From Euryarchaeota archaeon UBA4 (GTDB taxonomy: Archaea > Thermoplasmatota > Poseidoniia > Poseidoniales > Thalassarchaeaceae), in the NCBI GenBank assembly GCA_002497985.1, contig DAFQ01000001.1, forward strand, positions 8,600-61,721: a stretch of DNA of 53,122 nt. The letters are read 5' to 3'. A program made the position numbers and the translations under genes. Position 1 is the stretch's first letter, and the number at the start of each line of letters is the position of its first letter. The notes under the pieces are model-generated. The model worked only from the letters and a program-made list of their open reading frames with translations. It did not search any database and was not told the origin of the DNA. Below are positions 7,251 to 47,754 of the stretch, one piece after another.

Positions 7251-7420
7251 ATTCGAGTCTTCGACTCGCCCACCTAGATTTCAAGCCATCCTTGCATTCT
7301 TGCATTGGAAGGGCATACTGCATGTAATGACAATCTCCCACAGGGAACATTCACGTTTTCATCATTAGATAACATTGATGTACGTACACGAGGCCCGCCA
7401 ACCGATAGGTGCATGAAAAA

Positions 7421-10400
7421 ATGCCAATAATAGAGTACGTAGAAGACCGGATGGAGACCGAGGAACTCCTGGAAAACCTCAGTCAGCCGGTTAGGAACTG
7501 GTTCACGGATAAGTTCCCAGACTTCACTGAGCCCCAGAAGGTAGCAATCCCCAGAATTCTGAAGGGGGAACATTTGCTGCTTTGCTCACCTACTGGCTCT
7601 GGAAAAACACTCACGGCATTCTTGACAATAATCGACGATCTTGTCAGGAAGTCCCTGGATGGGTCACTTTCGGACTCGGTACAATGCGTCTACATCTCCC
7701 CAATCAAGGCACTAGCGAACGACATTCAGAAGAATCTGATAGGCCCACTAGAGGAAATTAAGGAGCGTTATCTCCCCAGTAGGGCAAAGGAAATCAAAGT
7801 GGGATTGAGAACCGGCGACACCCCTCAGAATGAGAGGGAGAAGATGCTCCGAAAACCCCCTCATATCCTAATCACAACCCCAGAATCACTCGCGCTTGGT
7901 CTAGCCTCCAAGAGATTCAGGCCAATATTGGATGAAATGAAGTGGCTAATTATCGATGAGATGCACTCATTGGTTCCAACAAAGAGGGGCACCCACCTAT
8001 CTTTGAGCATGGCCTTGATGGACTCGGTCGTTTCTTCCGAGGTTCAGAGGATAGGCATCAGTGCAACCATGGAGCCACTGGACGCAGTTGCCGAATTTCT
8101 TGTTGCCAGCGACTCGAGGGAAAGGGAAGAGGAAAAGCAGAAGGTCGCGATAGCGAAAATTTCTGGAGATAGAGAACTGGATCTGGACATCATACTCCCG
8201 ACCCCCAGATTCAGTTCAACTCCCGTGAAAGAGATTCTGGACCACAATATCGACAGAATCAAGGAATTGGTGGAGGCACATACCACAACTCTGGTTTTTG
8301 TGAATACCAGAAACATGACCGAGACATTCGTGCAGAAGCTGAAGATAGCGGGATTGGAAGGGGTCGAAGGACATCATGGTTCAATGGACAAAGCAATCAG
8401 GCTCGATGTCGAGAGACAGCTCAAGGACGGACTACTACGCTGTGTCGTATCATCGTCCAGCCTAGAAATGGGGATAGACATAGGTTCTGTTGACCTCGTC
8501 ATCCAAGTCGGCTCACCTGGATCAATTGCAACCGCCTTGCAGAGAATTGGAAGGGCCGGACACCAAGTCGACGGATTGCCCCGTGCCAGATTCCTACCAA
8601 CCTCATCACATGACCTCCTAGAGCTCGTCGCCCTGCAGACAGCAATACTCGAGGGCGAGATGGACCTGCTGAAATTTCCCGAGAATAGCCTTGATGTCCT
8701 CGCCCAGTTCCTAATCGGCCTTACAATAATCAAGGAATGGGACATAGATGACGCATACGATCTAGTCACATCTTCATGGCCCTATCGCGAGCTCCCCAAA
8801 GGGGACTACATCGAGGTTCTAGACATGCTCGACGAAGAGCGAAGACTGTGGCTAGACTGGGAGGAGGACAGATTCGGAAAGAGAGGCTTCGCCCAGATGA
8901 TCTACTACACAAACATAGGCACAATAGCACCGGACAACAACTATCTCGTATTCACTGGGGACGGTACACTAGTCGGCCAACTGTCTTCCTCATTCGTTTC
9001 TAGCCTCAGGAATGGCGACGTCTTCCTGCTGGGAGGATCAACATACAGGGTTGCGAGCATAAGGGGAACTAGAGTAAATGTCACCCCGGCTACTGGATAT
9101 CGCCCCACCATCCCGTCATGGACAGGGGAGGCAAACAGTAGGACTCATGAGTTAAGCCAAGCAGTTCTGAACTTACTCGGTCACGTTTCGATAGGCATCA
9201 GGATGGGCGAGGACTCCGAACCCCTTCTCACCAATGCCCTGGGACTAAACAGGCCAGTCGCTCTGGCGTTGAAGCAGTTCCTAGATGAGCATTCTGCCAC
9301 CACCTTCCAAGTCCCCTCTAATGATAGAATCCTAGTCGAGCAAGTAGAGGCCCCACTACCGACATACGTAGTTACTACATGCAGAGGGAGAGCATTCAAT
9401 CTGGCCCTAGGATACCTCTTCGCGGGCATCGCCACTCAGGATAACGTCATAGTTCACGAATTGTCCTTCGACGAGAACGGATTCATGGCAAAACTGAGCC
9501 ATGAAGTGGAGATATCAAAAATTCCAGAAGTTTTCAGAAACGACACCAGTGAAGAAGTACTTCAGAGGTACATGATGGACTCCCAACTATTCGCCAAGAG
9601 ATTCAGGGAAGTATCATCCAGAAGCATGCTGAATCCACGTAGGATAGGTTCCGAGGAAGTAAGCCCGAAGCAATATCAGCAGAAGGCCGAGGCAATAATG
9701 ACCAAACACAGACAGATGGAAGAATCGGTGATTATCCGTGAGGCGATGAATGAGATACTCAACGGCGATCTTGACATGAAGCAACTGAGGAACTTCATTT
9801 CCAGAATGGATAGTGAGGACGTTAGGATAGTCCATCGTAGAGTCAAGATGCCATCTCCCCTTGGAATGACGCTCTTCATGTCGGCCTTCGAGGATCTCCT
9901 GAGCCTCAGAACCCGTGCTTATCTGATCAAGGACGTCGATCCAGAGATACTCAGGAGGCTATTGGGGGCCCGATCTCTTGCAACCGACTTGGATAAGGAG
10001 AAGATAGCCGAGTACTATCAATCAAAGGTGGCCAAACCAAACGATGCGATTAGCTTACTCAGGCTCATGGATATGGGCGGGGGACTGGAGAGGGAATTGA
10101 CCAACCCACTCTACAACAGTAAACTCAGTGATATAGAGATTCCAACAATCAGGTCATGGGTCCATGAATTAGCTGAGAGGGGCCTAATAACCAAGGTCAG
10201 GAATACGAATCACGAGCAGATTGACGACAAGTGGTTCTCAATGAGGATGGCTAGTGTTCATGGGACCCTAGGGTGCCTCGCTGTTGCCGGGGCATCCGAG
10301 ATGGATGACCTAAGATCGCTATACACAGGTGGAATGACCTATGAAATTGCAGAGGGCTTCGTTGGATCAGAACCTAAGTCATGGAACCAATCTAACCTTT

Positions 10401-12709
10401 CTGACCCTCTAGACTGCCTGAGACTCAAACTCCTCGACATGCTGGGGTCCGAGGGCCCCCAGACTCTAGAATCACTGAGTGACAGGCTCCCATTCCCCCT
10501 GGCCCAGGTCGAATCTGTCCTACAGGAATTGGAGATGAGGAATCTAGTGTCAATAGGATTCTTCACTCAAACGGAAGAAGGCGAGTTTATCCTCAGAGTC
10601 GATGAATATAGAATCACAGGGGGAAGTGTAGATGTCGTCGACTATAGGACCCTGCAAACACTCCTGTTGCAGAAGTCCTTCACAAGATTCAGTGAGCCGT
10701 CAGAAGCGATACGCTCCCTCGCGCTCATTCAGAGAAGGGATGAGTTACTTCACAGGGTCGAGAACTATAGGTTCAGGGACTGGAAGGACATCAAGCACGA
10801 TCCCGACGTTTTCAACGGCAGGCTACTGCACAATAGGGTCGGCTACACAACCGGTGATCAACTACCAATGCTACAGGGACTCAGGACAGAGCCATGGCTA
10901 GGTGCCCTTGAGAACGAACTCTTGGAAAAGATTCCAGATGAAGGAATAACTCGGACGGAACTGTTCTCACAATACCCCCGGGGAAAAGAGAATCAGCACA
11001 TTCAGAAGAGCCTCAAGAGGGCCCTGGCAAACTTGGAGAGGCAGTTAGTTGTCGCCAAGCAATTCCTCGACATGCCAAATAGGAGGAGATCCGTTGCAAT
11101 CTTCAGGAGGGTGCACGGCGTCATCGAGGCCATGCCATTCCCACAGGCACTTTCCACTCTCATAAGGAAAATCGGGCCTGTCAGGTTACACACTCTGAGA
11201 TTCTTCGTCAGCAGACCCGTTGAGGAATTGGCCGAGGTTCTGAGGGATCTGGAATCAGATGGAAGCATTTGTCGTGTTGTGGCCCTGCAACCTGATCCCA
11301 CTGACTACTACGCATCACACGAGGATGCTGAGAGACTGCTATCTCCCATGCCCGAGGATAGGAAGATGAGGATTCTCTCTCAATCCGACCCCTTCTGCAG
11401 CAGATTCATCCAAGAGGTCCGGATGATACTCAAGCAGGGATGGTACCATCCCGTATTCAAGGGAGTAGACCCAATAGGCAGGATCCTAATGTTCGTTGTC
11501 AATGACTATCTCGAAATCAAGGACATCAACATACCCCACTCCTATCTGGATGAGTTCAAGACTGCTTTCAGTGACTTACTAGACAATTACAGAGATAGGT
11601 TAGTCGACGTTTCGGTAATCCATGCCTTCAACGGAGTACCAGTGCATGACTGCGACGAGAATATACAATCGATACTTTCCGAATTGGGATTCTCATCCAT
11701 GGGCGACGAGGAGAGATACATCAGGGGGGGAGTCGTCGAACCACGCCCCCGTCAGGAGATCAACAGGAGGCTATTCCATAGGCACAATGTGCACCAGTCC
11801 AGTAGGTGGGAGAATGAGACGTTCGCACTGAAAGAAATCGACGAGCTCAGAGATGACTTCGCATTGAGAGGGAGGTGCGAGATGTTCAGAGTAGACCTCC
11901 AATCTATGGCTGCAACCGAGCAATTACACCAGGGGACTAATCTCAGAGGTCACCAAGTTTGGGCCAGGTTGCCACATTTCCAGAGATTGCTAACCATCAG
12001 GAACATGCAACCCGAAGAGGATGAGCTGGGAATTCTCGAATTCTTCAGCAACCACAACGATCCTTCGGTTTTCATGGAGAGACTCGCCATGAAAAGAGGA
12101 GAGTTCAGGAAACTGATTTCTCCCCTCGTTAGGAGTGGGCACCTTGTCCAAGACTATCGTGGCGGCTTCAAGACCGTGAAGTCCCTGAAAGGAGAGGATC
12201 TGTGGAAAGTAAAGAGCGACTACCTGAGAGACATGGTTGAGGAGTACCCAGTAATCACCATGAAGCAATTCGAGAGGCTTGCTGGGACTCCATTCGCTCC
12301 CGAGGAGATTAGCGACGTCCTGCATGAGTTTGAGGAGGATGGGACCTTGATCAAGGGATTCCTGGTCGATGACCAGCATGACATCTCTTGGGGTCGCAAG
12401 GACCTCCTCGAAGTCGAGGGAATTTCCCGAACCAGAGATCTTGTTATACCCCCTTCTGACTCACTAATACACTACTTCGGAGGGACGCTCAGAGAGAAAT
12501 TCGGTTTTGGCTCGGCTTACCTTGTGTTCCACAAGGAGGAACCCATTGCCGCATTCAAGGCCAACACAAGGAATGGCACGATCGACGTAACTGATTTCGT
12601 AGGCGACTCGGAGCTAGAAAAGGAAGCGCTCAGGGTGATGAAGGAGTTCGCATGGGAGCATCAGATGCCCCTGACTGGCGAGCTCTATGAGAAATTGAGG
12701 TCAAGATGA
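7421..12709 (+). CDS. lhr: Lhr-family superfamily-2 helicase with a very long C-terminal extension
   Basis: The N-terminal VRNWFTDKFPDFTEPQ matches the Lhr N-terminus. Motif I is CSPTGSGKTLTAF, motif II is IIDEMHSL, and motif VI-like is QRIGRAGH. About 850 further residues include winged-helix-like/AlkZ(YcaQ)-like stretches (MRILSQSDPF...GWYHPVFKGVDPIGRILMFV). The ORF opens at GTG 7409. ATG 7421 is preceded by AGGTG at 7407-7411. Confidence 0.85.
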   Translation: MPIIEYVEDRMETEELLENLSQPVRNWFTDKFPDFTEPQKVAIPRILKGEHLLLCSPTGSGKTLTAFLTIIDDLVRKSLDGSLSDSVQCVYISPIKALANDIQKNLIGPLEEIKERYLPSRAKEIKVGLRTGDTPQNEREKMLRKPPHILITTPESLALGLASKRFRPILDEMKWLIIDEMHSLVPTKRGTHLSLSMALMDSVVSSEVQRIGISATMEPLDAVAEFLVASDSREREEEKQKVAIAKISGDRELDLDIILPTPRFSSTPVKEILDHNIDRIKELVEAHTTTLVFVNTRNMTETFVQKLKIAGLEGVEGHHGSMDKAIRLDVERQLKDGLLRCVVSSSSLEMGIDIGSVDLVIQVGSPGSIATALQRIGRAGHQVDGLPRARFLPTSSHDLLELVALQTAILEGEMDLLKFPENSLDVLAQFLIGLTIIKEWDIDDAYDLVTSSWPYRELPKGDYIEVLDMLDEERRLWLDWEEDRFGKRGFAQMIYYTNIGTIAPDNNYLVFTGDGTLVGQLSSSFVSSLRNGDVFLLGGSTYRVASIRGTRVNVTPATGYRPTIPSWTGEANSRTHELSQAVLNLLGHVSIGIRMGEDSEPLLTNALGLNRPVALALKQFLDEHSATTFQVPSNDRILVEQVEAPLPTYVVTTCRGRAFNLALGYLFAGIATQDNVIVHELSFDENGFMAKLSHEVEISKIPEVFRNDTSEEVLQRYMMDSQLFAKRFREVSSRSMLNPRRIGSEEVSPKQYQQKAEAIMTKHRQMEESVIIREAMNEILNGDLDMKQLRNFISRMDSEDVRIVHRRVKMPSPLGMTLFMSAFEDLLSLRTRAYLIKDVDPEILRRLLGARSLATDLDKEKIAEYYQSKVAKPNDAISLLRLMDMGGGLERELTNPLYNSKLSDIEIPTIRSWVHELAERGLITKVRNTNHEQIDDKWFSMRMASVHGTLGCLAVAGASEMDDLRSLYTGGMTYEIAEGFVGSEPKSWNQSNLSDPLDCLRLKLLDMLGSEGPQTLESLSDRLPFPLAQVESVLQELEMRNLVSIGFFTQTEEGEFILRVDEYRITGGSVDVVDYRTLQTLLLQKSFTRFSEPSEAIRSLALIQRRDELLHRVENYRFRDWKDIKHDPDVFNGRLLHNRVGYTTGDQLPMLQGLRTEPWLGALENELLEKIPDEGITRTELFSQYPRGKENQHIQKSLKRALANLERQLVVAKQFLDMPNRRRSVAIFRRVHGVIEAMPFPQALSTLIRKIGPVRLHTLRFFVSRPVEELAEVLRDLESDGSICRVVALQPDPTDYYASHEDAERLLSPMPEDRKMRILSQSDPFCSRFIQEVRMILKQGWYHPVFKGVDPIGRILMFVVNDYLEIKDINIPHSYLDEFKTAFSDLLDNYRDRLVDVSVIHAFNGVPVHDCDENIQSILSELGFSSMGDEERYIRGGVVEPRPRQEINRRLFHRHNVHQSSRWENETFALKEIDELRDDFALRGRCEMFRVDLQSMAATEQLHQGTNLRGHQVWARLPHFQRLLTIRNMQPEEDELGILEFFSNHNDPSVFMERLAMKRGEFRKLISPLVRSGHLVQDYRGGFKTVKSLKGEDLWKVKSDYLRDMVEEYPVITMKQFERLAGTPFAPEEISDVLHEFEEDGTLIKGFLVDDQHDISWGRKDLLEVEGISRTRDLVIPPSDSLIHYFGGTLREKFGFGSAYLVFHKEEPIAAFKANTRNGTIDVTDFVGDSELEKEALRVMKEFAWEHQMPLTGELYEKLRSR

Positions 12710-26342: not shown

Positions 26343-27680
26343 TCACAGAACCGACTCGTAAGGACTTCTGTCCTCTCCCGGATTAAGCGTAGCATCCATT
26401 CCTATCTTACTAGTCATTCCATCTTCTGATCTGCTCGGGTCCAAGCTAGAACCCTTCTGATTCGAGAGGATAATCGTATCACTATCGGGCTGCCACCTTG
26501 TCATCAGTGCCCATTCCACCCTCATCGGGTCAGCAATGTCAATGTCTTCGTCAACAACAATCACTTGCTTCATCGAAGGATGCCCTTCGAAAGCTGCTTG
26601 AATCGCCTTTTTACCGTCATTCGCATCTTCCGGCCTTATTTGAATTACCGAGGCAAGCCAACCACAACCCCCATCCGTCATGTGCACATCAGTACAGTTA
26701 ACAACTTCAGAAACAGCTGTTTTGATTGTCGGCGCCCTTGGCATCCCCATCAATGTCCTATGCTCCACTCCCGTTGGAATAATTGCATGGAATATCGGAT
26801 CCTTTCTGTGATGTACAGCATCATACGCGATAACGTGCTCCTGCCTTATGTCATCAACCGTACCGGTAATGTCGACGTATGGCCCCTCATCGTCTCTCTC
26901 TGGAGTTATCCTAGCCTGCATTGCATATTCGGCGTCTGCAGGCACAATTACACCGTTTGCCAACTTAACAACTCTTAGAGGACTCCCGTGCAACTTCTCA
27001 TGTAGTGCTGCTGCAACTGTCAACTCGTCCACATAATCGGTAAATGACATCGCAGCGGCCAATAGGACGGTGGGATCGGCACCATTCACTACTGCAATAG
27101 GAACATCATCACCATTCTCAGCCGCCATTGCGCTCAATGTTCTGAGATGCCTCGGAACGAGCCTGGCAACGGAATGCCCCCCGTCTCGTAGCAATTGTCT
27201 ATGGTATGAGACATTCCTCACCCCGTTATACTGCGCGATTATTATGGAGGCTGATTGATACCTCCCCCCATCCTCCCTGAAGTGCCAGGGAATTGGAAGC
27301 TTCTCCAGATCCACACTTTCCTGCCCCGATTCCATAACTTCGGCCTCTGAATGATCAACGATCAGTGGCTCGGAGGGATTTTCCATCGCCCAAGCGAGGA
27401 TATCTATGAGCTCACCGGGACCAACACTGAACATCTCGCATAGCCGCGAGCGTTCTAGGACATTTAGTGCGGCTCTGTGCCCCGGGGACTCAGCAATGCT
27501 GTCGAACACTAAAGGCACATTCCCCATCGAAACAGAGGAATCCAACATATCATGAATGACACTCACAGTATCGCTCACGCGATGGACACCACCGAGCATG
27601 TCGCGGAATGCCATGTAGCGGGGCGACGTCAGGTCGTGCTTCAATGTTAGTGAGACTATCTCACTCAGAGTGCCACTCAC
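26343..27680 (-). CDS. UbiD-family (prenylated-FMN dependent) decarboxylase
   Basis: At 445 aa it shows UbiD-like blocks (PLRVVKLANGVIVPADAEYAMQARI, GPYVDITG, HRTLMGMPRAPTI, MKQVIVVDEDIDIADPMRVEWAL). The substrate cannot be assigned; see the findings. Confidence 0.88.
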   Translation of the reverse strand: MSGTLSEIVSLTLKHDLTSPRYMAFRDMLGGVHRVSDTVSVIHDMLDSSVSMGNVPLVFDSIAESPGHRAALNVLERSRLCEMFSVGPGELIDILAWAMENPSEPLIVDHSEAEVMESGQESVDLEKLPIPWHFREDGGRYQSASIIIAQYNGVRNVSYHRQLLRDGGHSVARLVPRHLRTLSAMAAENGDDVPIAVVNGADPTVLLAAAMSFTDYVDELTVAAALHEKLHGSPLRVVKLANGVIVPADAEYAMQARITPERDDEGPYVDITGTVDDIRQEHVIAYDAVHHRKDPIFHAIIPTGVEHRTLMGMPRAPTIKTAVSEVVNCTDVHMTDGGCGWLASVIQIRPEDANDGKKAIQAAFEGHPSMKQVIVVDEDIDIADPMRVEWALMTRWQPDSDTIILSNQKGSSLDPSRSEDGMTSKIGMDATLNPGEDRSPYESVL

Positions 27681-31103: not shown

Positions 31104-32795
31104 TCAGTTGATCCTAATCAGCTGGAAATCAGTTAATTCCCTTAGGATGTCCAATGCAGGTCCATCCTCAATATTGTCAAGGCACTGGTGGGCTAAAGAG
31201 TGGTGATGCATCGCCCTTTCCTTTGCATAACCAATCGATCCACTGTCATGCAATTCCTTTACGGCATTCGAAAGAGTGTCTTCCGAACACTCCCCAGACC
31301 CATATGCTTCAGTGAATGCAGGCATGTCATCATCACAATTCAATGCGTGAATCGCTATGAGCGTCTTCTTTCCCTGAACAATGTCCGAACCCGCCGGTTT
31401 CCCAAGTGTTTCGGTGTCTCCAGTGATATCGATTAAATCGTCCATCAACTGGAAGCATAGGCCGAGATTTAGCCCCCAATTTTTCATATTGTCAACAACA
31501 CCGTCAGAAGCACCCGCTAAAATCGCTCCAGTTCCAGCACAGGTTTCGAACATTACACTAGTCTTACCTTTTATCATCTCAATGTATTCATCCTCGGATA
31601 CAGATTCCCTGGTCTCGAATGAGATGTCTTCCTGCTGGCCACTAGCAACATTCCTTACCATTTCTCCAATTGATCTGACTAGGAATGCAAGCTTATCTTG
31701 TTCAATATGTGGAGATTCAGCCAATATCTCAAATGCAACAGCAAGCATCGCATCTCCAGCGTTAATCGCAGTAGAATCATCATAAGCGACATGAACTGCG
31801 TCCAATCCCCTTCTAATGGGATCTTGATCCATTAAATCGTCATGTACTAGGGTGAAATTGTGGATAATTTCGATAGAGGCACCGAGTGTATAATGACCCT
31901 CATGAGCCGTTCCTACAGCCTCTCCAACTAACCTAGGCAGGGTCGCCCTGAGCCTTTTCCCACCTCCTGTGAAAAGGTGTTTCATCGCCCCATGAAGCCT
32001 TTCTTGCTTCATCTTACTGAGACTTCCCATAATGACACTCTCGACATACTCTCTGTGAGTGCCAATAGCCGTCATCAGTTTCTCCCCAGGAATAACCGCC
32101 TGACCACCCATGCTAACTTCCCCGAAATTCACGACGCCTTCCACTATGGGGGCCTTGTCGACATTAGGATAATGATCGGCAATGAACTCGCCCCACAATA
32201 GGCGGAACCATGGTGCGATAACCTCACCTTCCCAAATCCCAGAACCAGAAAACATCTCATCTATCTCATGCCCGGCGATCCACCTTACATCAGAAATCTC
32301 GTTTGGGTTCGGATTCACATCAATAGAATCTGTGATGCCCACAATTACATGATCAACTTCTCTTTCGACCCAATCCTCATCCCACCTACATTCATACAGA
32401 AATGATCCTAGGTGCCTGAATTCTATGTTTGAAATATCAATATCAGAAACTCCCAATTCTTGTGATAGCTTCCTTTTCGCGGCATTAATGGCGCCCTTCG
32501 AGGGATGCTCATTCTCACTGGGAATGTCCAGTGGGTGGCTGCAACAGGAATTAGCCCAAATCGAGGGGAAAGTAATCTTGTCATGGGACCTCTGCTGGAC
32601 TAGCATTTTTCCATCGCCATCGAACAGAAGTACGCTGAACGCACGATGCAACTTTCCTTCTGCATAATGACAGTTCAACTTAGAATCCGAGCCAATCCTT
32701 GAATCAGAGCTATCCACTAGAATGCACATTTCAGACATCATTTCGGCCTGTGAACTGTCTTGCCCACTTAGAGCCCCATCTTGACCCGTCATCAT
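31104..32795 (-). CDS. fusion protein: type-1 isopentenyl-diphosphate isomerase (N-terminal) plus (E)-polyprenyl/GGPP synthase (C-terminal)
   Basis: The N-terminal half carries LHRAFSVLLFDGDGKMLVQQRSHDKITFPSIWANSCCSHPL (IDI type 1, Nudix fold). The C-terminal half carries the first Asp-rich motif LVHDDLMDQDPIRRG and the second, FQLMDDLIDITGD. Both halves lie in one uninterrupted 563-codon ORF. Confidence 0.85.
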   Translation of the reverse strand: MMTGQDGALSGQDSSQAEMMSEMCILVDSSDSRIGSDSKLNCHYAEGKLHRAFSVLLFDGDGKMLVQQRSHDKITFPSIWANSCCSHPLDIPSENEHPSKGAINAAKRKLSQELGVSDIDISNIEFRHLGSFLYECRWDEDWVEREVDHVIVGITDSIDVNPNPNEISDVRWIAGHEIDEMFSGSGIWEGEVIAPWFRLLWGEFIADHYPNVDKAPIVEGVVNFGEVSMGGQAVIPGEKLMTAIGTHREYVESVIMGSLSKMKQERLHGAMKHLFTGGGKRLRATLPRLVGEAVGTAHEGHYTLGASIEIIHNFTLVHDDLMDQDPIRRGLDAVHVAYDDSTAINAGDAMLAVAFEILAESPHIEQDKLAFLVRSIGEMVRNVASGQQEDISFETRESVSEDEYIEMIKGKTSVMFETCAGTGAILAGASDGVVDNMKNWGLNLGLCFQLMDDLIDITGDTETLGKPAGSDIVQGKKTLIAIHALNCDDDMPAFTEAYGSGECSEDTLSNAVKELHDSGSIGYAKERAMHHHSLAHQCLDNIEDGPALDILRELTDFQLIRIN

Positions 32796-40228: not shown

Positions 40229-41176
40229 TCATCGACTGTTGAGCAATTCTCGGGCCCTTTTCACGATTTCATCTCTGGTTAGTCCAAGAGACTCCATGAG
40301 ATCAGAGGACGAGCCACTTTCACCGAACCTGTCGTCAACACCCACCATCTGAACGGGAAATCCCCCCGCAGACGACATATACTCTGCTACAGCACTGCCT
40401 AGTCCGCCTATTACAGAATGGTCTTCAGCCGTTACTATTCCCTCACACTTCATCCTAATTTCATCTAATAGTTCGGTATCAAGAGGTTTTATCGTATGCA
40501 TGTCAATAACGCATGCATCAACGCCTGAATCAGCTAATGTTGAAGCTGCCTCCATTGCCTCAGATACCATGACCCCACAAGCGATAATTGCCACATCATC
40601 ACCCTCCTTGAGTATCGATCCCTTTCCAATTTTCAGTTCTTTAACGGATTCCGTGTCGTACATTCTAGGCGTTTTGTTCCTAGCAGTTCTGGTGTATGAC
40701 GCATTGCCGTGATCCAGGAGTTGGATAGTCAACTCTTCTGCGGATATATCATCCGATGGCGTAATGACGGTTAGTCCGGGGATTGTCCTGTAGATTGCTA
40801 GATCCTCGATTGACTGTGCGCTGCTTCCATCGGTTCCAGTGTGTATGCCCCCATGACTGCCACATATATGCACAGGTAGACCTGGCCGAGCGATACCGTT
40901 CCTCACTTGTTCGAATGCACGTTCGGTAAAGATCGCAAAGGTGCTAGCAAAGGGAATTTTACCAGATGATGCCATGCCCGCAGCTACTAGCATCATATTC
41001 TGCTCAGCTATGCCTAGTGACACTGTCCTTTCGGGAAACTCAGCTCTGAAAAGACATGACTTGGTAGACTTCCCCAGATCTGCCTCTAGGACAACAACTC
41101 GGTGGTCCGATGATAGCTTCAGCAGTGCTGAACCATATCCATCTCTGGATGCACCACCAGCAGAGGGGGCACTCAT
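40229..41176 (-). CDS. transketolase, C-terminal (pyrimidine-binding) subunit
   Basis: RDGYGSALLKLSSDHRVVVLEADLGKST, GIAEQNMMLVAAGMA and the C-terminal domain are present. The gene lies immediately downstream of the N-terminal subunit gene with a 4-nt overlap. Confidence 0.9.
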   Translation of the reverse strand: MSAPSAGGASRDGYGSALLKLSSDHRVVVLEADLGKSTKSCLFRAEFPERTVSLGIAEQNMMLVAAGMASSGKIPFASTFAIFTERAFEQVRNGIARPGLPVHICGSHGGIHTGTDGSSAQSIEDLAIYRTIPGLTVITPSDDISAEELTIQLLDHGNASYTRTARNKTPRMYDTESVKELKIGKGSILKEGDDVAIIACGVMVSEAMEAASTLADSGVDACVIDMHTIKPLDTELLDEIRMKCEGIVTAEDHSVIGGLGSAVAEYMSSAGGFPVQMVGVDDRFGESGSSSDLMESLGLTRDEIVKRARELLNSR

Positions 41177-42009
41177 GATAACTCCTCCAATGCTAGAGAC
41201 AATTCCTCATCACTAGGTGCCTTTCCATGGAATGATGGGTTATCTTCCATGAATGATATTCCTTTTCCTTTAGTGGTATGTGCAACGATTGCCGAGGGGG
41301 CACTGTCCTGCTCAGATGCCCATTTCAGAGCACCAACAATTTCGCTCATGTCATGTCCATCGATTTCCTTAACGTTCCAACCAAAGGAGGAGATTTTTGA
41401 TGCAACATCGCCGACCTCCATCTGAACGTTTACGAAGTCATCGTTCTGAATTCTATTCCTATCTACAATCATCTTCAGTCCACTGACCTCGTGAAAGTTA
41501 GCAGCCATCATGGCTTCCCACACCTGTCCCTCTTGGAGCTCCCCATCTCCCACCATAACCCATGTCTCTCTTGAACTAGAGTCCATCCTTGCTGCTATGG
41601 CGCATCCGAGCCCGAACGAGAGACCCATGCCCAGACTCCCAGCAGAGAAGTCCACGCCATCAGTCCACTTCATGTCGACGTGCCCCTGGCATACTGATCC
41701 AAGTGTGCGGAATGTGGACAAATCAGACTCGCTAAGGAAACCCATTTCATGAAGAATTGAATATACTGCTGGACTGGCGTGACCCTTGCTCATAACGAAC
41801 CGGTCCCGATCGGACCAATCTGGATTGTTTCTATCGAACCTAAGCCTAGTCCCATAGAGTGCTACAATAATATCGATAGCAGAAAGAGAACCTCCCGGGT
41901 GGCCAGCTCCTGCCTTGTGGATCATTCTTACTATATGCTTCCTGCAATCATTCGACAGATTCTCAAGCTCAGAGATAGACAGGTTCTGATGTCCGACATC
42001 CCCATCCAT
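41173..42009 (-). CDS. transketolase, N-terminal (thiamine-diphosphate-binding) subunit
   Basis: KAGAGHPGGSLSAIDIIVALY, MSKGHASPAVYS and VMVGDGELQEGQVWEA are present. ATG 42009 (MDGDVGHQ...) is preceded by AGGAG 4-5 nt upstream and gives the usual length of about 278 aa. The track ORF's extra 113 codons overlap the divergent mqn gene. Confidence 0.88.
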   Translation of the reverse strand: MDGDVGHQNLSISELENLSNDCRKHIVRMIHKAGAGHPGGSLSAIDIIVALYGTRLRFDRNNPDWSDRDRFVMSKGHASPAVYSILHEMGFLSESDLSTFRTLGSVCQGHVDMKWTDGVDFSAGSLGMGLSFGLGCAIAARMDSSSRETWVMVGDGELQEGQVWEAMMAANFHEVSGLKMIVDRNRIQNDDFVNVQMEVGDVASKISSFGWNVKEIDGHDMSEIVGALKWASEQDSAPSAIVAHTTKGKGISFMEDNPSFHGKAPSDEELSLALEELS

Positions 42010-42052
42010 GACACTCCTACAGAATCTAACTAATGATGATTTCCGGGCACCG

Positions 42053-42060
42053 TATATATT
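42053..42060. promoter_or_regulatory. TATA-like element (TATATATT) in the divergent transketolase/mqn spacer
   Basis: This is the only strong AT-rich octamer in spacer 42010-42103. It lies about 47 nt from the minus-strand ATG (42009) and about 48 nt from the plus-strand ATG (42104). Confidence 0.35.
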
Positions 42061-42103
42061 CATCAGACGAATTCTTATCACATACTGCGGGGGGCCGAAT
42101 ATC

Positions 42104-43321
42104 ATGGCGTTAGTGGATGCCCCGTTGTCAGGCAACGACAATTGGCGTGAGACCCTCTCATCGATGCCTGTGCCCCTGTCAGTATCCTCGGATCCAATTT
42201 CCAATTCATGCCTCGAATCATTGATTCGGGATGGCAGAATTTCTGAGGAGCAGGGGATGTCATTGTTTGAAAATCCATCACTATTATCTGTCACATCTCT
42301 AGCTGACATGGTGAAGCGATCACGATACTCAAATAACGTATTCTTCAATGAGAATCTCCATGTAAATACAACAAATATTTGCGTACTCGCATGCCGCTTC
42401 TGCGCATTCAGAAAGGGCCCTAGACACCCCGACGCCTATGCCCTTGATGTTGACGAATACATCAGCAGAATACGCCCCATGTCGACAAGCATAGATGAGG
42501 TCCACACTGTTGGAGGGCTTCATCCAACATGGGACGTTGATGACTATTGCAAATTATTTACAGCATGTAAATCGGAATTCCCAGATATACACATCAAAGC
42601 ACTTACTGCTGTAGAGATCAAACATCTCTCCAAGAGATCATCCATAACTGTAGAGGCCACACTCTCGAGACTATTGGATGCTGGACTCGACTCACTGCCC
42701 GGAGGCGGCGCCGAAATCCTCGTCGACAACATCAGGGACAGGATATGCATGGGCAAGGAGTCATCCGATGAATATCTGGAAATCCACTCCATAGCCCACT
42801 CTCTGGGAATGCCAACAAATTGTACAATGCTATTCGGGACCATTGAGTCAATTCAAGACAGGGTGACTCACCTTTCGAGAATCAGAAACCAGCAGGACAT
42901 TAGTGGGGGATTCCAGTGCTTCGTACCATACCCATTCCTTCCTGATAAATCTAGGTTACCAGAGGCGCAACTAGCTACTGGAAGCGAGATAATTAGAGTC
43001 ATTTCTGTTTCTCGATTAATGCTTGATAATGTCCCCCACATCAAGGCATATAGGATGAATATAGGGGACAAACTTGCCTCATTAGCTCTAACATGCGGGG
43101 CTGATGATATCGATGGGACCGTTGGTCATGAGGAGATAATGCATGTGGCCGGAAGCTCCACTAGTTTGGACACAAGTTCGAACCAATTAGCAATTCTGGT
43201 AGAGTCAACAGGCTCCTTACCAATTAAGAGGGACTCGAAGTACTCAGTATTCTCCCCCTACGAAACAAATTCTATCACCCATTCAATTCCATTACCGCAG
43301 ATTAGTACAGAATTGGTGTAG
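42104..43321 (+). CDS. radical SAM enzyme of the futalosine pathway (MqnE/MqnC family)
   Basis: NTTNICVLACRFCAFRKGP carries the CxxxCxxC radical SAM cluster in the MqnC/MqnE context. GGGAEIL and HIKAYRM blocks are also present. The gene lies directly upstream of mqnA. I cannot separate MqnE from MqnC by eye. The start could be ATG 42104 or ATG 42164. Confidence 0.78.
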   Translation: MALVDAPLSGNDNWRETLSSMPVPLSVSSDPISNSCLESLIRDGRISEEQGMSLFENPSLLSVTSLADMVKRSRYSNNVFFNENLHVNTTNICVLACRFCAFRKGPRHPDAYALDVDEYISRIRPMSTSIDEVHTVGGLHPTWDVDDYCKLFTACKSEFPDIHIKALTAVEIKHLSKRSSITVEATLSRLLDAGLDSLPGGGAEILVDNIRDRICMGKESSDEYLEIHSIAHSLGMPTNCTMLFGTIESIQDRVTHLSRIRNQQDISGGFQCFVPYPFLPDKSRLPEAQLATGSEIIRVISVSRLMLDNVPHIKAYRMNIGDKLASLALTCGADDIDGTVGHEEIMHVAGSSTSLDTSSNQLAILVESTGSLPIKRDSKYSVFSPYETNSITHSIPLPQISTELV

Positions 43322-43323
43322 AG

Positions 43324-44124
43324 ATGAGTTGGAACGGGGTAATTGGCAGGGTTTCATTCTCAAATTGCGATCCAATTTTTGATGGCATCGATGAAAACTG
43401 GTCGATCCTGCCTGCACCCCCAGCTTGGCTAACTGGCCATGTCATGAGGAGGGATTGCCTAACTGCCCCAATTCCTGCAGCCGACTATGCACTCAATCAC
43501 GAGGAGCTTTTCCTCTTGCCCGATTTGGGAATAGTAAGCAGTGGCGATGTCGGATCAGTTCTACTATTCGGCTCCCGGCCACTAGAGAATATGAGGGATA
43601 TCGCACTCCCCTCTGACTCCTCCACATCAAAGGTCCTGCTGAGGTGGGCACTAAAGAATCGTGGTTTGGATCCTAAATTTATTGAGTCCGGGCCAGATAT
43701 TGATACTATGCTGTCCAAGTGCGATGGGGCATTGCTTATCGGCGACAGGTCATTGATGGCTTCTATGGAGCGCCCTGACCTTGTAAGATTGGATCTAGGC
43801 AGTGAATGGAGTAATGCTACAGGTCTGCCAATGGTTTTCGGTGTGTTCGCAGCTAGGAGGGACTCGCCCCTGGAGGATCTAAGAGCGGCATATTCCGATA
43901 TGATGTCCCAATTGCATAAATTCGAGTTCGATGAGGAATGGCGGTCCCAAGTAATCACAAGGTCTTCGCACAAACTGGGATTCCCATATGAAAGGATGGA
44001 TGACTATTTCAGAAGAGAGGTCAGAAACAGGATGACGGATATTGATGTCAACGGACTTACAACTTTCCTAAGAGTCGCATGTGGGATGGAAGAAGATCCG
44101 ACATGGGCATTTCATTCGGAGTAA
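43324..44124 (+). CDS. mqnA: chorismate dehydratase MqnA (futalosine pathway)
   Basis: IGRVSFSNCDPIF, DGALLIGDRSL and LDLGSEWSNATGLPMVFGVFAARRD match the MqnA (periplasmic-binding-protein-like) pattern. Confidence 0.8.
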   Translation: MSWNGVIGRVSFSNCDPIFDGIDENWSILPAPPAWLTGHVMRRDCLTAPIPAADYALNHEELFLLPDLGIVSSGDVGSVLLFGSRPLENMRDIALPSDSSTSKVLLRWALKNRGLDPKFIESGPDIDTMLSKCDGALLIGDRSLMASMERPDLVRLDLGSEWSNATGLPMVFGVFAARRDSPLEDLRAAYSDMMSQLHKFEFDEEWRSQVITRSSHKLGFPYERMDDYFRREVRNRMTDIDVNGLTTFLRVACGMEEDPTWAFHSE

Positions 44125-44591
44125 TTGAGTTTCTTGCTCGAAACCCACTCAAGTAGGTCCAACGCCACCTCACATGACTCGGCGACGACTACATCCCTGT
44201 CGTTCTTGAATTCCTCGAGGACGCCAAGAGCGGTTCTGTCACCTATTGCACCTAGGGCCTCAGCAGCCTCATGCCTAACCATGACATCCTCGTCCATATC
44301 CCTCAACCTGTCGATTAAGTGAGGGACGGCACTAGGGTCTTGCATCTGACCCATTACATACGCGATCTCATGTTTGAGCAGAGCTGATTCCGAAGAGAAT
44401 GCAGCAGCCAGGGCCTCTACGGAGTCTCTCCCTCCAATATTCCTCAAAGCAAAAAGTGCCCTCATTCTTTGGAACATCCGCTCATCCTCATCACAGATGC
44501 TGGCCCTCAATCTGGGAACATCCGAATCTTGGCTTGGGGGGGCTGGATCAACAGATTCAAACTCGCTAACTTCGGGTTTATCATCAGTCAT
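44112..44591 (-). CDS. HEAT-repeat protein resembling one half of eukaryotic deoxyhypusine hydroxylase (DOHH)
   Basis: Two His-Glu motifs occur in DOHH-like context, 33 residues apart: SALLKHEIAYVMGQMQD and VMVRHEAAEALGAIGD. SVDPAPP lies near the N-terminus and ESCEVALDLLEW near the C-terminus. The ATG directly follows the mqnD stop (TAG|ATG). Confidence 0.7.
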   Translation of the reverse strand: MTDDKPEVSEFESVDPAPPSQDSDVPRLRASICDEDERMFQRMRALFALRNIGGRDSVEALAAAFSSESALLKHEIAYVMGQMQDPSAVPHLIDRLRDMDEDVMVRHEAAEALGAIGDRTALGVLEEFKNDRDVVVAESCEVALDLLEWVSSKKLNYSE

Positions 44592-45443
44592 CTATTCACC
44601 CGAACCTATGAAATTAATCGAATCGACATCCAGTGTTTCCCTCACCATTCCAATTCTTTGCCCCTCCTTGAGGAATAGGCGTATCGCATCCCTGCCGTCG
44701 TCCCCGTAGTCTAGAGTTCTTTCGTTTACGTACATTCCAACGAACTCCTCATTAGTTTCGTCATCAATGCCCCTTCCCCACTTCTTGGCAAACTCTAGTG
44801 CCGCCCCTGGGTCTGAGAGGGAGTGTTCGATGCTGTTCTTTACATCGTTCGTAAGCATCTCACAAAGGTCCATCCCCAGATCCTTTCTGACTACATTACC
44901 ACCAAGTGGTAGGGGTAATCCTGTTTTATCATTCCACCAAATTCCGAGGTCAAGTACCAAGTAAACCCCCTCTGATTCCCATGTCAATTGACCCTCGTGA
45001 ATTATCAAACCAACATCGTACTCCCCCCTCAATACGGCAGGCAGGATATCATCGAATGGAACGACCTCGACCTCGACCTCGCCCCATGCCAGCCTTAGAG
45101 CCAGATAGGCACTAGTACCTAGTCCCGGAATTGCAATTTTGCTGTTCATCGCCTCTTCTTCTGTCATCACTCTGTTCGTGATTAACATGGGGCCATAGCC
45201 CTCGCCCATTGATGCTCCACAATTCATCAAGTGATACCTGTCAGAGATTTCTGGGAATGAGTGTATACTTACGGCAGAAACTTCGTATTCACCATTCATG
45301 GCGTGCTTGTTCAAAGTCTCAATATCTAACAGGACGTGTTCGTATCTCCTTTCTCCCGTGTCAATTGCCCCTGTAGTCATAGCATGGAACATAAACGCGT
45401 CATCTGGGTCCGGAGAATGGCCTACTCTGAATGCTCCCATCAT
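44592..45443 (-). CDS. mqnD: 1,4-dihydroxy-6-naphthoate synthase MqnD (futalosine pathway)
   Basis: FRVGHSPDPDDAFMFHAM (family pattern SPCPNDTFxF), LDIETLNKHAMNGEYEVSAVS and IAIPGLGTSAYLALRL are present. ATG 45443 is preferred, because the track ORF adds 55 non-homologous codons. Confidence 0.82.
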   Translation of the reverse strand: MMGAFRVGHSPDPDDAFMFHAMTTGAIDTGERRYEHVLLDIETLNKHAMNGEYEVSAVSIHSFPEISDRYHLMNCGASMGEGYGPMLITNRVMTEEEAMNSKIAIPGLGTSAYLALRLAWGEVEVEVVPFDDILPAVLRGEYDVGLIIHEGQLTWESEGVYLVLDLGIWWNDKTGLPLPLGGNVVRKDLGMDLCEMLTNDVKNSIEHSLSDPGAALEFAKKWGRGIDDETNEEFVGMYVNERTLDYGDDGRDAIRLFLKEGQRIGMVRETLDVDSINFIGSGE

Positions 45444-45540
45444 GTCACCTATGTTCCCTCGGTAGAGGACGCATAGAAAATTCCTTGTATGCACAATTAT
45501 CGATGGTAACAGTGAATAGCCAACGCTAGGTCCACGGTTT

Positions 45541-45738
45541 GTGCCTGACCCATCCAAACTGTCCACGGCAACGGGACAGCTAGGTCCAATATGCGCAGTG
45601 ACTGGCAAGGCACTAACATTCTCAGAGGCTATTGTAGTCGATGATCGCTTTGTTTGCTATGAGGCCTACCTGGAGATGACTGGCACTGAATCAGCAACCG
45701 ACTCAAGAGAAGTCCCTACCAGCCTAGTTCTGGAATAG
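45541..45738 (+). CDS. possible small protein with a degenerate YHS/TRASH-like pattern
   Basis: This is a GTG-initiated 65-codon ORF in the largest non-coding gap of the window. GPICAVTGKALTFSEAIVVDDRFVCYEAY loosely resembles the YHS/TRASH layout (DPVCGM...A...G..YFCS..C), but only two of the Cys are retained. I saw no SD. The evidence is weak. Confidence 0.2.
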   Translation: MPDPSKLSTATGQLGPICAVTGKALTFSEAIVVDDRFVCYEAYLEMTGTESATDSREVPTSLVLE

Positions 45739-46956: not shown

Positions 46957-47025
46957 CCGTTACACGCTAACCTATCCACAGAATATTGAATAGTGTAGAG
47001 TTCCGGATTCGGTACGGTGGGGCAT

Positions 47026-47754
47026 ATGCCAGACGATGAAGAATCCGAGGAACAAGCATTCGGTATGCCCCTGCCACCACTTCCACCAGGCATTTCCATG
47101 CCCCCTCCACCGCCACCACCACCACTCCCCGATGATGTGATTGAGTCGGCTATGGGAGAGGGTCCACCCATCCCTTCTCCCCCGGTTGAACCAGAATCAT
47201 CAGAACCTAACGATTTCCAAGCCCACTGGGAGAAAAGGAAGCACGATGATCCAGAACACCAATCAGGAAACAGAGATAGCATGTATGGCCACATTGACAG
47301 GATATCATCTGGCCAGGTTGGGACACTAATAGACCGGTTTTCTGATAGGTTCGGCTCTGAATTAGATAGGGAGATAATTGTTCTAAGGAAGAAGCAGCAA
47401 CAAGAAATGCTGGCGATCAAGCCCATAGTTGAGTTGATTTCCGCCCCTGATTCCGATGACGATGATTTTGAAGAAGATTCAGCTGACGAATTCCCCGAGT
47501 TCTTCTCCATCGTCAACGAGTTACTAGGTAATATGCCAGAGGATTTCGTGCAGAGTTTCATCGAATCCGACTCATTTGAGCTATTCCAGACAGTGGGCGA
47601 GGATCCAGCTAGCTGTGACTCCGAGACAAGGAGCGACTTTTTCGTGATGATAAATTCAGTGCTAGGGGATCTCCCGGAAGAGGAAATCAATGATTTTGTT
47701 GAATCCAGCGGATTCCAGGTGTTTCAAAGAATGAGCGAGCTATACGGAGAGTGA
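47026..47754 (+). CDS. hypothetical acidic protein with a polyproline tract and an internal C-terminal duplication
   Basis: ATG 47026 is preceded by GGTGG 5 nt upstream. LPPLPPGISMPPPPPPPPLP lies near the N-terminus. A conserved-looking central block is present (YGHIDRISSGQVGTLIDRFSDRFGSELDREIIVLRK). Two C-terminal repeats follow (EFFSIVNELLGNMPEDFVQSFIESDSFELFQ / DFFVMINSVLGDLPEEEINDFVESSGFQVFQ). Confidence 0.6.
   Translation: MPDDEESEEQAFGMPLPPLPPGISMPPPPPPPPLPDDVIESAMGEGPPIPSPPVEPESSEPNDFQAHWEKRKHDDPEHQSGNRDSMYGHIDRISSGQVGTLIDRFSDRFGSELDREIIVLRKKQQQEMLAIKPIVELISAPDSDDDDFEEDSADEFPEFFSIVNELLGNMPEDFVQSFIESDSFELFQTVGEDPASCDSETRSDFFVMINSVLGDLPEEEINDFVESSGFQVFQRMSELYGE

What the first reader, a model, noticed from the sequence alone, without database searches (positions are those of the whole stretch)
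44112..44591. Half-size, eukaryote-like deoxyhypusine hydroxylase (DOHH) homolog directly abutting mqnD: candidate missing archaeal hypusine hydroxylase or a new di-iron HEAT hydroxylase
**Similarity to DOHH.** The 159-aa ORF is built of HEAT repeats. It carries two His-Glu motifs in what I recognise as the DOHH sequence context: SALLKHEIAYVMGQMQDPSAVPHLIDRL (H74-E75) and EDVMVRHEAAEALGAIGD (H107-E108). VVAESCEVALDLLEW follows them and SVDPAPP precedes them. From memory, animal and yeast DOHH contain near-identical strings (SALLKHELAYCLGQMQD, MVRHEAGEALGAIG, ESCEVALD), with SVDPAPP in the linker between the two halves. Their four HE motifs, two per pseudo-symmetric half, ligate the di-iron centre. 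The 33-residue spacing between paired HE motifs is the same here.

**Half length.** Eukaryotic DOHH is about 300 aa and has two such halves. This ORF is a single half, so a homodimer would be needed to assemble a di-iron site. That is also what one would expect of an ancestor before the internal duplication.

**Why it matters.** To my knowledge no DOHH has been identified in archaea, although some archaea carry fully hydroxylated hypusine on aIF5A.

**Context.** The start codon directly follows the mqnD stop (minus strand TAG|ATG, 44594-44589), so the gene is co-transcribed with menaquinone genes. It might alternatively hydroxylate a quinone-pathway intermediate. A protein with an 8-proline run, the classic aIF5A/eIF5A-dependent substrate type, is encoded 2.4 kb away.
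Basis: partly seen in the sequence, partly recalled or inferred. Interest (0 to 1): 0.85.

Follow-up and report, generated by a model that had tools for sequence, protein, structure and literature searches.

The report
Half-size deoxyhypusine hydroxylase in marine archaea
This gene of a Marine Group II archaeon encodes exactly one half of the eukaryotic enzyme that finishes the hypusine modification of translation factor 5A; two copies probably pair to rebuild the two-iron active site, so it is an archaeal relative of an enzyme that the hypusine papers read here (2016-2021) say archaea lack.

Summary
The 159-aa ORF at 44112-44591 (-) is real. It is under strong purifying selection (dN/dS about 0.06) and is specifically related to deoxyhypusine hydroxylase (DOHH). 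It matches both halves of human DOHH without gaps (E 1.8e-73), whereas generic HEAT proteins score at most 55 bits per domain. All published iron ligands and substrate-binding residues are conserved in 248 half-size homologues.

Every half-size copy found is from Poseidoniales. A published pangenome table lists the gene as core to both MGIIa and MGIIb. It always follows mqnD, but the whole neighbourhood is syntenic, so a quinone role has little support.

The protein scores equally on profiles of eukaryotic N-halves and C-halves (164 bits each). It joins the middle of the branch between them and keeps the eukaryotic inter-domain motif VDPAP at its N-terminus. A tandem copy models as human DOHH (TM 0.94), although eukaryotic sequences guided that model.

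Best reading: a homodimeric di-iron DOHH acting on aIF5A, resembling the form before the internal duplication. Automated pipelines already call it DOHH. The hypusine papers read here say archaea have none.

It does not explain hypusine in Crenarchaeota. No activity, iron binding or dimer formation has been shown.

The parts
44112..44591 (-). Half-size DOHH homologue: 159 aa, 17.7 kDa, pI 4.45, four HEAT-like hairpins plus an N-terminal arm.
   Evidence: ORF. PDB phmmer E 1.8e-73 to human DOHH. Pfam HEAT_2 and HEAT_PBS. dN/dS about 0.056 over 41 orthologous CDS. GC and GC3 match the neighbouring genes.
44535..44561 (-). N-terminal arm FESVDPAPP (residues 11-19). It is the equivalent of the eukaryotic inter-domain linker motif SVDPAP.
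   Evidence: It aligns to the human linker. D15, P16 and A17 are invariant in 248 half-size homologues, and P18 is present in 247 of 248. D and P are also invariant across 78 eukaryotic DOHHs. The motif is never found upstream of a eukaryotic N-half (0 of 98) and is in the linker in 71 of 98.
44337..44387 (-). First His-Glu motif, SALLKHEIAYVMGQMQD (H74-E75 at 44372-44367; G81). It corresponds to human H56/E57/G63 and also to H207/E208/G214.
   Evidence: Gap-free alignment. H74 and E75 are each present in 247 of 248 homologues, and G81 and Q82 in 248 of 248. The roles of the human residues are taken from PMC9117371.
44238..44285 (-). Second His-Glu motif, VMVRHEAAEALGAIGD (H107-E108 at 44273-44268). 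It corresponds to human H89/E90 and also to H240/E241.
   Evidence: Alignment. H107, E108 and G114 are present in 248 of 248 homologues.
44145..44180 (-). C-terminal helix ESCEVALDLLEW, which resembles the ESCEVALD of eukaryotic C-halves.
   Evidence: S139 and C140 are invariant in 248 homologues.
44592..45443 (-). mqnD-like gene (PF02621). Its likely start is the ATG at 45443 (283 aa). The mechanical ORF extends to 45608.
   Evidence: Pfam E 5.8e-67 with the domain at residues 61-315 of the long ORF. Orthologues are called at 285-303 aa. It sits immediately upstream of the DOHH half in every locus that extends far enough upstream.
44589..44600 (-). Coupling junction GGTGAATAG|ATG. A Shine-Dalgarno-like GGTGA lies inside the last mqnD codons, followed by the stop TAG and then the start ATG.
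   Evidence: The same or a similar junction (0-25 nt gap, GGTGA in most) is seen in related loci. That GGTGA matches the archaeal anti-SD sequence is from general knowledge and was not tested.
43324..44124 (+). mqnA-like gene (PF02621), convergent with the DOHH half. The two 3' ends overlap by 13 nt.
   Evidence: The arrangement is conserved downstream, and some lineages have a WD40 gene inserted in between.
42008..43321 (+). Radical-SAM gene of the MqnC/MqnE type (context only; the true start is probably later than the ORF start).
   Evidence: Pfam Radical_SAM plus CofH_C.

Best explanation
The ORF encodes a single-half member of the deoxyhypusine hydroxylase (DOHH) family and is a core gene of Poseidoniales (Marine Group II archaea).

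Proposed mechanism:
- Each 159-aa chain supplies one iron site (H74, H107, E108) and one substrate-contacting Glu/Gly pair (E75, G81).
- Two chains associate head-to-head, like the N- and C-halves of eukaryotic DOHH.
- Together they form a symmetric non-haem di-iron centre that activates O2.
- That centre hydroxylates the deoxyhypusine side chain that deoxyhypusine synthase places on aIF5A, giving hypusine.
- The invariant N-terminal VDPAP arm, which is the inter-domain linker in eukaryotes, probably packs at the subunit interface or over the active site.

The gene is transcribed with mqnD and translationally coupled to it. I read this as genome compaction rather than a shared pathway.

In evolutionary terms the protein is undifferentiated. 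It behaves like the form before the internal duplication, or a lineage that branched close to that duplication, and not like a recently truncated eukaryotic gene.

Shown: homology, conservation, distribution and synteny.
Inferred: the dimer, iron binding, the substrate and the evolutionary polarity.
For: Homology and specificity:
- Human DOHH is matched at E 1.8e-73, gap-free to both halves.
- Per-domain scores are 94-145 bits against eukaryotic DOHH and at most 55 bits against generic HEAT proteins without HE motifs.
- NCBIfam bilin-lyase and NblB models score far below their cut-offs.

Catalytic residues:
- The six published iron ligands (H56, H89, E90, H207, H240, E241) and the substrate-binding residues (E57, E90, E208, E241 and two conserved glycines) are listed in PMC9117371.
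- They all map onto H74, E75, G81, H107 and E108.
- Those positions are conserved in 247-248 of 248 half-size homologues.

Selection and nativeness: dN/dS is about 0.056, and GC and GC3 equal those of the neighbours.

Dual-role sequence:
- It scores 163.7 bits on a eukaryotic N-half profile and 164.5 bits on a C-half profile.
- True N-halves have a median of 147 bits on their own profile and true C-halves 168. Cross scores are only 130 and 116.
- Identity is 46% to N-halves and 47% to C-halves, while N and C halves of one protein share 39.5%.
- It carries a mosaic of N-type and C-type residues.

Dimer plausibility:
- No second half lies in the window. There is one locus per genome in the GTDB scan (the two exceptions are discussed in the full report), and a single pangenome cluster.
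- A tandem copy modelled with a eukaryotic alignment gives pLDDT 92 and pTM 0.89. It superposes on 4d4z with TM 0.94 and rmsd 1.3 A over 287 columns.
Against: - No biochemical data exist. Poseidoniales are uncultured, and the modification state of their aIF5A is unknown.
- The tandem model was guided by full-length eukaryotic sequences, so it shows compatibility and does not independently predict a dimer. The single-sequence model was poor (pLDDT 63). I could not inspect coordinates to measure the ligand geometry.
- The gene is invariably coupled to mqnD, which could point to a different substrate.
- Spermidine synthase and aIF5A were not found by name in the MGII core table. I did not retrieve an MGII aIF5A sequence.
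- A divergent partner half elsewhere in the genome cannot be excluded.
Confidence: 0.6

Rival explanations
1. It is a DOHH-fold di-iron oxygenase recruited to another substrate. One candidate is a step or modification in menaquinone (futalosine-route) biosynthesis together with MqnD. Another is a different protein or polyamine substrate.
For: The mqnD-to-DOHH-half order is invariant, with a 0-25 nt gap or overlapping stop and start, across lineages down to about 60% protein identity. mqnA and an MqnC/E-type radical-SAM gene lie next to it.
Against: - The entire block (MetRS, CNNM, two unknowns, PriS, mqnD, DOHH half, mqnA, radical SAM) is conserved, including unrelated genes. The adjacency is therefore not specific.
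- To my knowledge the futalosine pathway needs no O2-dependent hydroxylation and runs in many organisms without any DOHH-like gene. This is general knowledge and was not tested here.
- The residues that bind the deoxyhypusine side chain in human DOHH are invariant.
- The sequence scores like a bona fide eukaryotic half, which is unexpected after a change of substrate.
Confidence: 0.17
2. It works as one subunit of a heterodimer with a second, divergent half-size HEAT protein encoded elsewhere in the genome, so the eukaryotic asymmetry is split over two genes.
For: Only 53 kb of this genome and about 12 kb per related genome were examined. Generic HEAT-repeat proteins are common (30,495 hits at E <= 0.001).
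Against: - There is one locus per genome in the GTDB scan. The two MAGs with two copies carry both in identical synteny, which indicates strain mixing.
- There is a single DOHH gene cluster in the 250-genome pangenome.
- The protein scores equally as an N-half and as a C-half, which suits a self-pairing subunit.
Confidence: 0.1
3. It is a recently acquired, truncated fragment of a eukaryotic DOHH gene (C-half plus linker). It would be non-functional or a non-catalytic HEAT scaffold, or a product of contamination in the assembly.
For: The closest full-length relatives are all eukaryotic. The N-terminal motif equals the eukaryotic linker that precedes the C-half.
Against: - It is found between archaeal genes in all 88 related loci retrieved, out of 134 species genomes with a hit.
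- It is core to both families of the order.
- dN/dS is 0.056 and its composition is native.
- The ligand residues are invariant.
- It is as close to N-halves as to C-halves, and it attaches outside both eukaryotic crown groups in 300 of 300 bootstrap replicates of a crude distance analysis.
Confidence: 0.03

Closest known systems
Eukaryotic deoxyhypusine hydroxylase (human DOHH, PDB 4D4Z/4D50; yeast Lia1)
   Same: - HEAT-repeat fold.
- HE motifs 33 residues apart.
- KHE-AY-GQ and VRHEAAEALG contexts.
- VDPAP motif and ESCEVALD helix.
- 45-59% identity to individual halves, with gap-free alignment.
- A tandem model superposes at TM 0.94.
   Different: - One half (159 aa, 4 repeats) instead of two fused halves (about 300 aa, 8 repeats).
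- The site would have to form between two identical chains.
- VDPAP is an N-terminal arm rather than a linker.
- The sequence is not differentiated into N-type or C-type.
- The host is an archaeon and the gene sits in an operon with mqnD.
PBS-lyase-type HEAT-like repeat proteins (Pfam HEAT_PBS/HEAT_2; CpcE/F, NblB, E. coli YibA, MTH187, designed alphaRep proteins)
   Same: The same repeat type. Pfam HEAT_2 scores 73.8 bits and HEAT_PBS 60.5 bits. alphaRep designs match each repeat block at about 35-44 bits.
   Different: - These proteins lack the His-Glu pairs, the VDPAP arm and the ESCEVALD helix.
- NCBIfam NblB and CpcE score 39 and 23 bits against cut-offs of 300 and 330.
- Fold match TM is at most 0.57 against 0.94 for DOHH.
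- They are not known to be metalloenzymes.
Archaeal hypusination systems described so far (Sulfolobus and Haloferax DHS/aIF5A)
   Same: The presumed substrate pathway is the same. DHS is core in MGII.
   Different: Those systems have no DOHH homologue. Hypusine formation in Sulfolobus is unexplained, and Haloferax stops at deoxyhypusine. The protein found here was seen only in Poseidoniales.

Membership tests
Deoxyhypusine hydroxylase (DOHH / Lia1; EC 1.14.99.29) | HEAT-like alpha-hairpin repeat fold. | tested here: met
   Pfam HEAT_2 and HEAT_PBS. The AF2 model is all helical hairpins, and the top Foldseek hit is 4d4z.
Deoxyhypusine hydroxylase (DOHH / Lia1; EC 1.14.99.29) | Specific sequence similarity to DOHH, above that to other HEAT families. 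| tested here: met
   E 1.8e-73 to human DOHH. Per-domain scores of 94-145 bits against at most 55 bits for generic HEAT proteins. About 164 bits on DOHH-half profiles against 73.8 bits on HEAT_2.
Deoxyhypusine hydroxylase (DOHH / Lia1; EC 1.14.99.29) | Strictly conserved His-Glu motifs, 33 residues apart, that supply the iron ligands (human H56, H89, E90, H207, H240, E241). | tested here: met
   H74-E75 and H107-E108 align to both human pairs. They are conserved in 247-248 of 248 homologues. There are two motifs per chain, so four would need a dimer.
Deoxyhypusine hydroxylase (DOHH / Lia1; EC 1.14.99.29) | Residues that bind the deoxyhypusine side chain (human E57, E208 and the conserved Gly of the GQ motif). 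| tested here: met
   E75 is present in 247 of 248 homologues, and G81 and Q82 in 248 of 248. The roles are taken from PMC9117371.
Deoxyhypusine hydroxylase (DOHH / Lia1; EC 1.14.99.29) | Single chain of about 300 aa with eight repeats in two pseudo-symmetric halves. | tested here: not met
   All 248 archaeal homologues are 154-168 aa and form one half. No second half lies in the window.
Deoxyhypusine hydroxylase (DOHH / Lia1; EC 1.14.99.29) | Two halves close around a di-iron centre. | tested here: inconclusive
   A tandem of two copies models as DOHH (pLDDT 92, TM 0.94), but the eukaryotic alignment guided it. No multimer prediction or coordinates were available.
Deoxyhypusine hydroxylase (DOHH / Lia1; EC 1.14.99.29) | Fe(II)/O2-dependent hydroxylation of deoxyhypusine on (a/e)IF5A. 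| not testable with these tools
   This needs biochemistry or metaproteomics.
Deoxyhypusine hydroxylase (DOHH / Lia1; EC 1.14.99.29) | Co-occurrence with deoxyhypusine synthase and IF5A. | tested here: met
   [quoted passage not shown] I did not retrieve the MGII aIF5A itself, and it was absent by name from the core table.
Bilin lyase / NblB type PBS-HEAT proteins | Score above the curated family cut-offs. | tested here: not met
   NblB scores 39.2 bits against a cut-off of 300. CpcE scores 23.4 against 330.

The most novel reading that the evidence does not exclude
Poseidoniales carry a living representative of DOHH as it was before the internal duplication: a homodimeric, fully symmetric di-iron HEAT enzyme that makes true hypusine on an archaeal aIF5A.

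That would be the first archaeal deoxyhypusine hydroxylase. It would also show that the eukaryotic enzyme arose by tandem duplication and fusion of such a half. The gene would either have been inherited from, or exchanged with, an archaeal lineage before the last eukaryotic common ancestor.
Probability: 0.4. Interest if true: 0.8.

Novelty: new variant of a known kind. Interest (0 to 1): 0.66.

Why it matters
- The hypusine papers read here state repeatedly that archaea have deoxyhypusine synthase but no DOHH orthologue. This family is a clear counter-example in one of the most abundant archaeal groups of the surface ocean. Simple experiments can test it: expression, iron content, the blue peroxo-di-iron chromophore, and a +16 Da shift on aIF5A.
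- It offers a minimal, truly symmetric version of an unusual di-iron oxygenase. That would be useful for mechanistic and design work.
- It gives a concrete picture of how the eight-repeat eukaryotic enzyme could have arisen from a four-repeat homodimer.
- It does not solve how Crenarchaeota make hypusine.

Tried and rejected
- Second half in the window: tblastn found none. Pfam scans of about 47 further ORFs found no aIF5A or DHS.
- aIF5A in held DNA: a regex search for the hypusine loop in 0.94 Mb of loci found nothing real.
- Single-sequence AF2 of a tandem copy: poor (pLDDT 63) and uninformative.
- Biopython NJ bootstrap: timed out. I replaced it with my own NJ and distance code. Bootstrap support for monophyly of the N- and C-half clades is weak with only 118 columns.
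- Fusion with MqnD by stop-codon read-through: rejected. The two genes are in frame here, but spacing and frame vary among relatives.
- Paralogues: the two MAGs with two copies carry both in identical synteny, which indicates strain mixing.
- Unnamed full-length relatives with the highest identity (P0141, P0147): P0141 lies beside eukaryote-type genes (PAC4, prenyltransferase alpha). The neighbours of P0147 had no Pfam hits, so its contig could not be assigned. No prokaryotic full-length DOHH was found.
- Literature: no paper held both DOHH and Asgard, or deoxyhypusine and MGII terms, or K06072. The single paper holding 'deoxyhypusine monooxygenase' and archaea was unrelated.
- Naming an MGIIa member directly: failed. 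The six hit MAGs I looked up are MGIIb. Presence in MGIIa rests on the published pangenome table.
- Distribution outside Poseidoniales: not exhaustively tested, because the result lists stop at 120-150 hits.
Full report
**1. The observation**

The minus-strand ORF 44112-44591 starts with ATG and encodes 159 aa. It contains H74-E75 in SALLKHEIAYVMGQMQD and H107-E108 in VMVRHEAAEALGAIGD, 33 residues apart. SVDPAPP lies near the N-terminus and ESCEVALD near the C-terminus. The mqnD-like ORF ends with TAG at 44594-44592, directly before the ATG.

**2. It is DOHH-like, not merely HEAT-like**

- Pfam sees only HEAT_2 (73.8 bits) and HEAT_PBS (60.5 bits). No DOHH-specific Pfam model matched.
- NCBIfam bilin-lyase and NblB models score far below their cut-offs.
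- Against PDB sequences the best hit is human DOHH at E 1.8e-73. Query residues 24-151 align without gaps to the N-half (116.5 bits). Residues 5-150 align without gaps to the linker plus C-half (133.1 bits). Designed alphaRep HEAT proteins reach only about 35-44 bits per block.
- In a search of 1.84 billion cluster representatives, the roughly 300-aa two-domain hits (eukaryotic DOHH where named: Geosiphon, a crustacean, Trichinella, EukProt) give 94-145 bits per domain. Giant generic HEAT proteins give at most 55 bits and lack HE motifs.
- Profiles I built from 74 eukaryotic N-halves and C-halves score the ORF at 163.7 and 164.5 bits.

**3. Catalytic residues**

A review from the laboratory that characterised the enzyme lists two sets of residues (PMC9117371). 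H56, H89, E90, H207, H240 and E241 anchor the di-iron centre. E57, E90, E208, E241 and two conserved glycines bind the deoxyhypusine side chain.

In both alignment registers these map onto H74, E75, G81, H107 and E108. Across 248 half-size homologues, H107, E108, G81, Q82 and G114 are invariant, and H74 and E75 are each present in 247 of 248. dN/dS is about 0.056. GC and GC3 equal those of neighbouring genes.

**4. Who has it**

- The top 120 hits among 5.8 billion proteins are all 158-161 aa, apart from one 196-aa entry. Where named, they come from Poseidoniales or Thalassarchaeaceae. JGI already calls them 'deoxyhypusine monooxygenase', while NCBI calls them HEAT-repeat, PBS lyase or hypothetical.
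- A scan of one genome per GTDB species found 134 genomes with a relative. The best 80 are all Poseidoniales-type MAGs. The six I looked up are MGIIb.
- More divergent subfamilies (about 60% identity) are also half-size.
- Tully 2019, Supplementary Data 10, sheet 'MGII Core', lists one gene cluster as 'DOHH; deoxyhypusine monooxygenase' in 75% and 78% of the two clades. The criterion for that sheet is presence in at least 70% of both MGIIa and MGIIb genomes. The same sheet lists DHPS at 97% and 99%, and the mqn genes. The main text does not mention DOHH.
- Papers on archaeal hypusination from 2016, 2018 and 2021 state that no archaeal DOHH orthologue is known.
- Further searches found no paper that discusses an archaeal DOHH.
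- Of the two unnamed full-length relatives I checked, one (P0141) sits beside eukaryote-type genes. The other contig (P0147) gave no assignable neighbours.

**5. Context**

Wherever the contig extends far enough, the order is PriS (divergent), then mqnD followed by the DOHH half, then mqnA and a radical-SAM gene (convergent). This holds in the 80 GTDB loci and in the divergent lineages.

- The gap between mqnD and the DOHH half is 0-25 nt or a stop/start overlap.
- Most loci have a GGTGA inside the end of mqnD.
- Some lineages insert an approximately 800-aa WD40 gene directly after the DOHH half.

MetRS, CNNM, two unknown genes and PriS are equally syntenic. The adjacency therefore reflects a frozen, compact neighbourhood, and I give it little weight as evidence of a shared function. 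The window otherwise carries ordinary archaeal housekeeping genes and no aIF5A or DHS.

**6. One half, two roles**

- There is no second half in the window. The GTDB scan finds one locus per genome, except for two MAGs that carry two syntenic copies, which indicates strain mixing. The pangenome has one cluster.
- Over 118 trimmed columns the archaeal protein is 46% identical to eukaryotic N-halves and 47% to C-halves. N and C halves of the same protein share only 39.5%. The best single matches include both kinds of half (59% to an N-half, 56% to a C-half).
- It carries N-type residues (RALF, LLKHE, GQMQD, GAIGD, terminal W) and C-type residues (LF-R, VV-ESCEVALD, the linker motif).
- On the N-half profile it scores 163.7 bits, above the median of true N-halves (147). 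On the C-half profile it scores 164.5 bits, within the range of true C-halves (143-190). Cross-scores of true halves are 130 and 116.
- In a neighbour-joining tree of the full data, the archaeal, N and C groups are each monophyletic, though bootstrap support is weak.
- Mean distances place the attachment point near the middle of the N-C path (0.61 from N tips, 0.57 from C tips), with a short own branch of 0.33. The point lies beyond both crude crown depths in 300 of 300 bootstrap replicates. It is nearer to C in 74% of them, which is not significant.
- The VDPAP motif is invariant in the archaeal proteins although there is nothing to link. It is invariant in the eukaryotic linker and never precedes a eukaryotic N-half.

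Two readings fit. An ancestral N-terminal arm was lost from the first copy after fusion. Or an early C-half with its linker was captured close to the time of the duplication. The data do not fit a recent truncation of a modern eukaryotic gene.

**7. Structure**

A head-to-tail tandem of two copies folded poorly without an alignment (pLDDT 63). With 78 eukaryotic DOHHs as the alignment it gave pLDDT 92.2 and pTM 0.89. That model matched 4d4z with TM 0.94 (normalised by target length) and rmsd 1.3 A over 287 columns. The next hits, alphaRep proteins, had TM of at most 0.57. This shows that two copies can be threaded onto the closed DOHH architecture. It is homology-guided and does not prove a dimer.

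**8. Conclusion**

The ORF is a bona fide, half-length DOHH family member that is core to Poseidoniales. The most likely mechanism is a homodimer whose two 2-His-1-Glu sites form the di-iron centre and hydroxylate deoxyhypusine on aIF5A (confidence about 0.6).

| Rival | Confidence |
|---|---|
| Another substrate, possibly quinone-related | about 0.17 |
| An unseen hetero-partner | about 0.1 |
| A non-functional or recently acquired fragment | about 0.03 |

It is a new variant of a known enzyme kind. Pipelines already label it, but no paper I could search describes it as a half-size archaeal DOHH. It does not account for hypusine in Crenarchaeota.

Noticed in passing
window 47017-47754 (+): A 245-aa acidic protein with no Pfam hit carries PLPPLPPG followed by a run of 8 prolines. 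Orthologues in most related loci keep 'LPLPPPPPG'-type runs of 5-8 prolines, reminiscent of eukaryotic FH1 or profilin-binding tracts.
   Followed up: partly
L081 8542-10902; L084 7529-9913; L085 7492-9885; L086 7523-9928: In the DOHH-half lineages at about 60% identity, an approximately 800-aa WD40 protein matching many beta-propeller models is encoded directly after the DOHH half on the same strand. In L085 its start overlaps the DOHH stop. The gene is absent from this position in the window's lineage. Roughly a dozen loci show a gap of about 2.6 kb at the same position.
   Followed up: partly
window 44592-45608, 41173-42348, 42008-43321: The mechanical ORFs are over-extended at their 5' ends. 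mqnD most likely starts at the ATG at 45443 (283 aa, against 285-303 aa called in relatives). The transketolase-N ORF and the radical-SAM ORF overlap by about 340 nt only because of such extensions.
   Followed up: partly
window 7409-12709 (+): A 1766-aa Lhr-type helicase (DEAD, Helicase_C, WH_Lhr, DEAD_assoc) has a weak AlkZ-like DNA-glycosylase region in its C-terminal part.
   Followed up: no
window 31104-32795 (-) and 26343-27680 (-): There is a NUDIX-polyprenyl synthase fusion (563 aa) and a UbiD-family decarboxylase. These are further candidate isoprenoid and quinone genes, 12-18 kb from the mqn cluster.
   Followed up: no
L008/L031 (MAG UBA105) and L053/L064 (MAG SAT218): Two species-representative MAGs each contain two different copies of the whole PriS-mqnD-DOHH-mqnA block. 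This points to mixed strains in the bins and not to paralogues.
   Followed up: yes
Tully 2019 Supplementary Data 10 (PMC6336850): Neither spermidine synthase nor EIF5A appears by name in the held supplementary files, including the MGII core table, although DHPS does. The polyamine donor for deoxyhypusine in Poseidoniales may therefore not be the canonical one. The table may also be incomplete.
   Followed up: no
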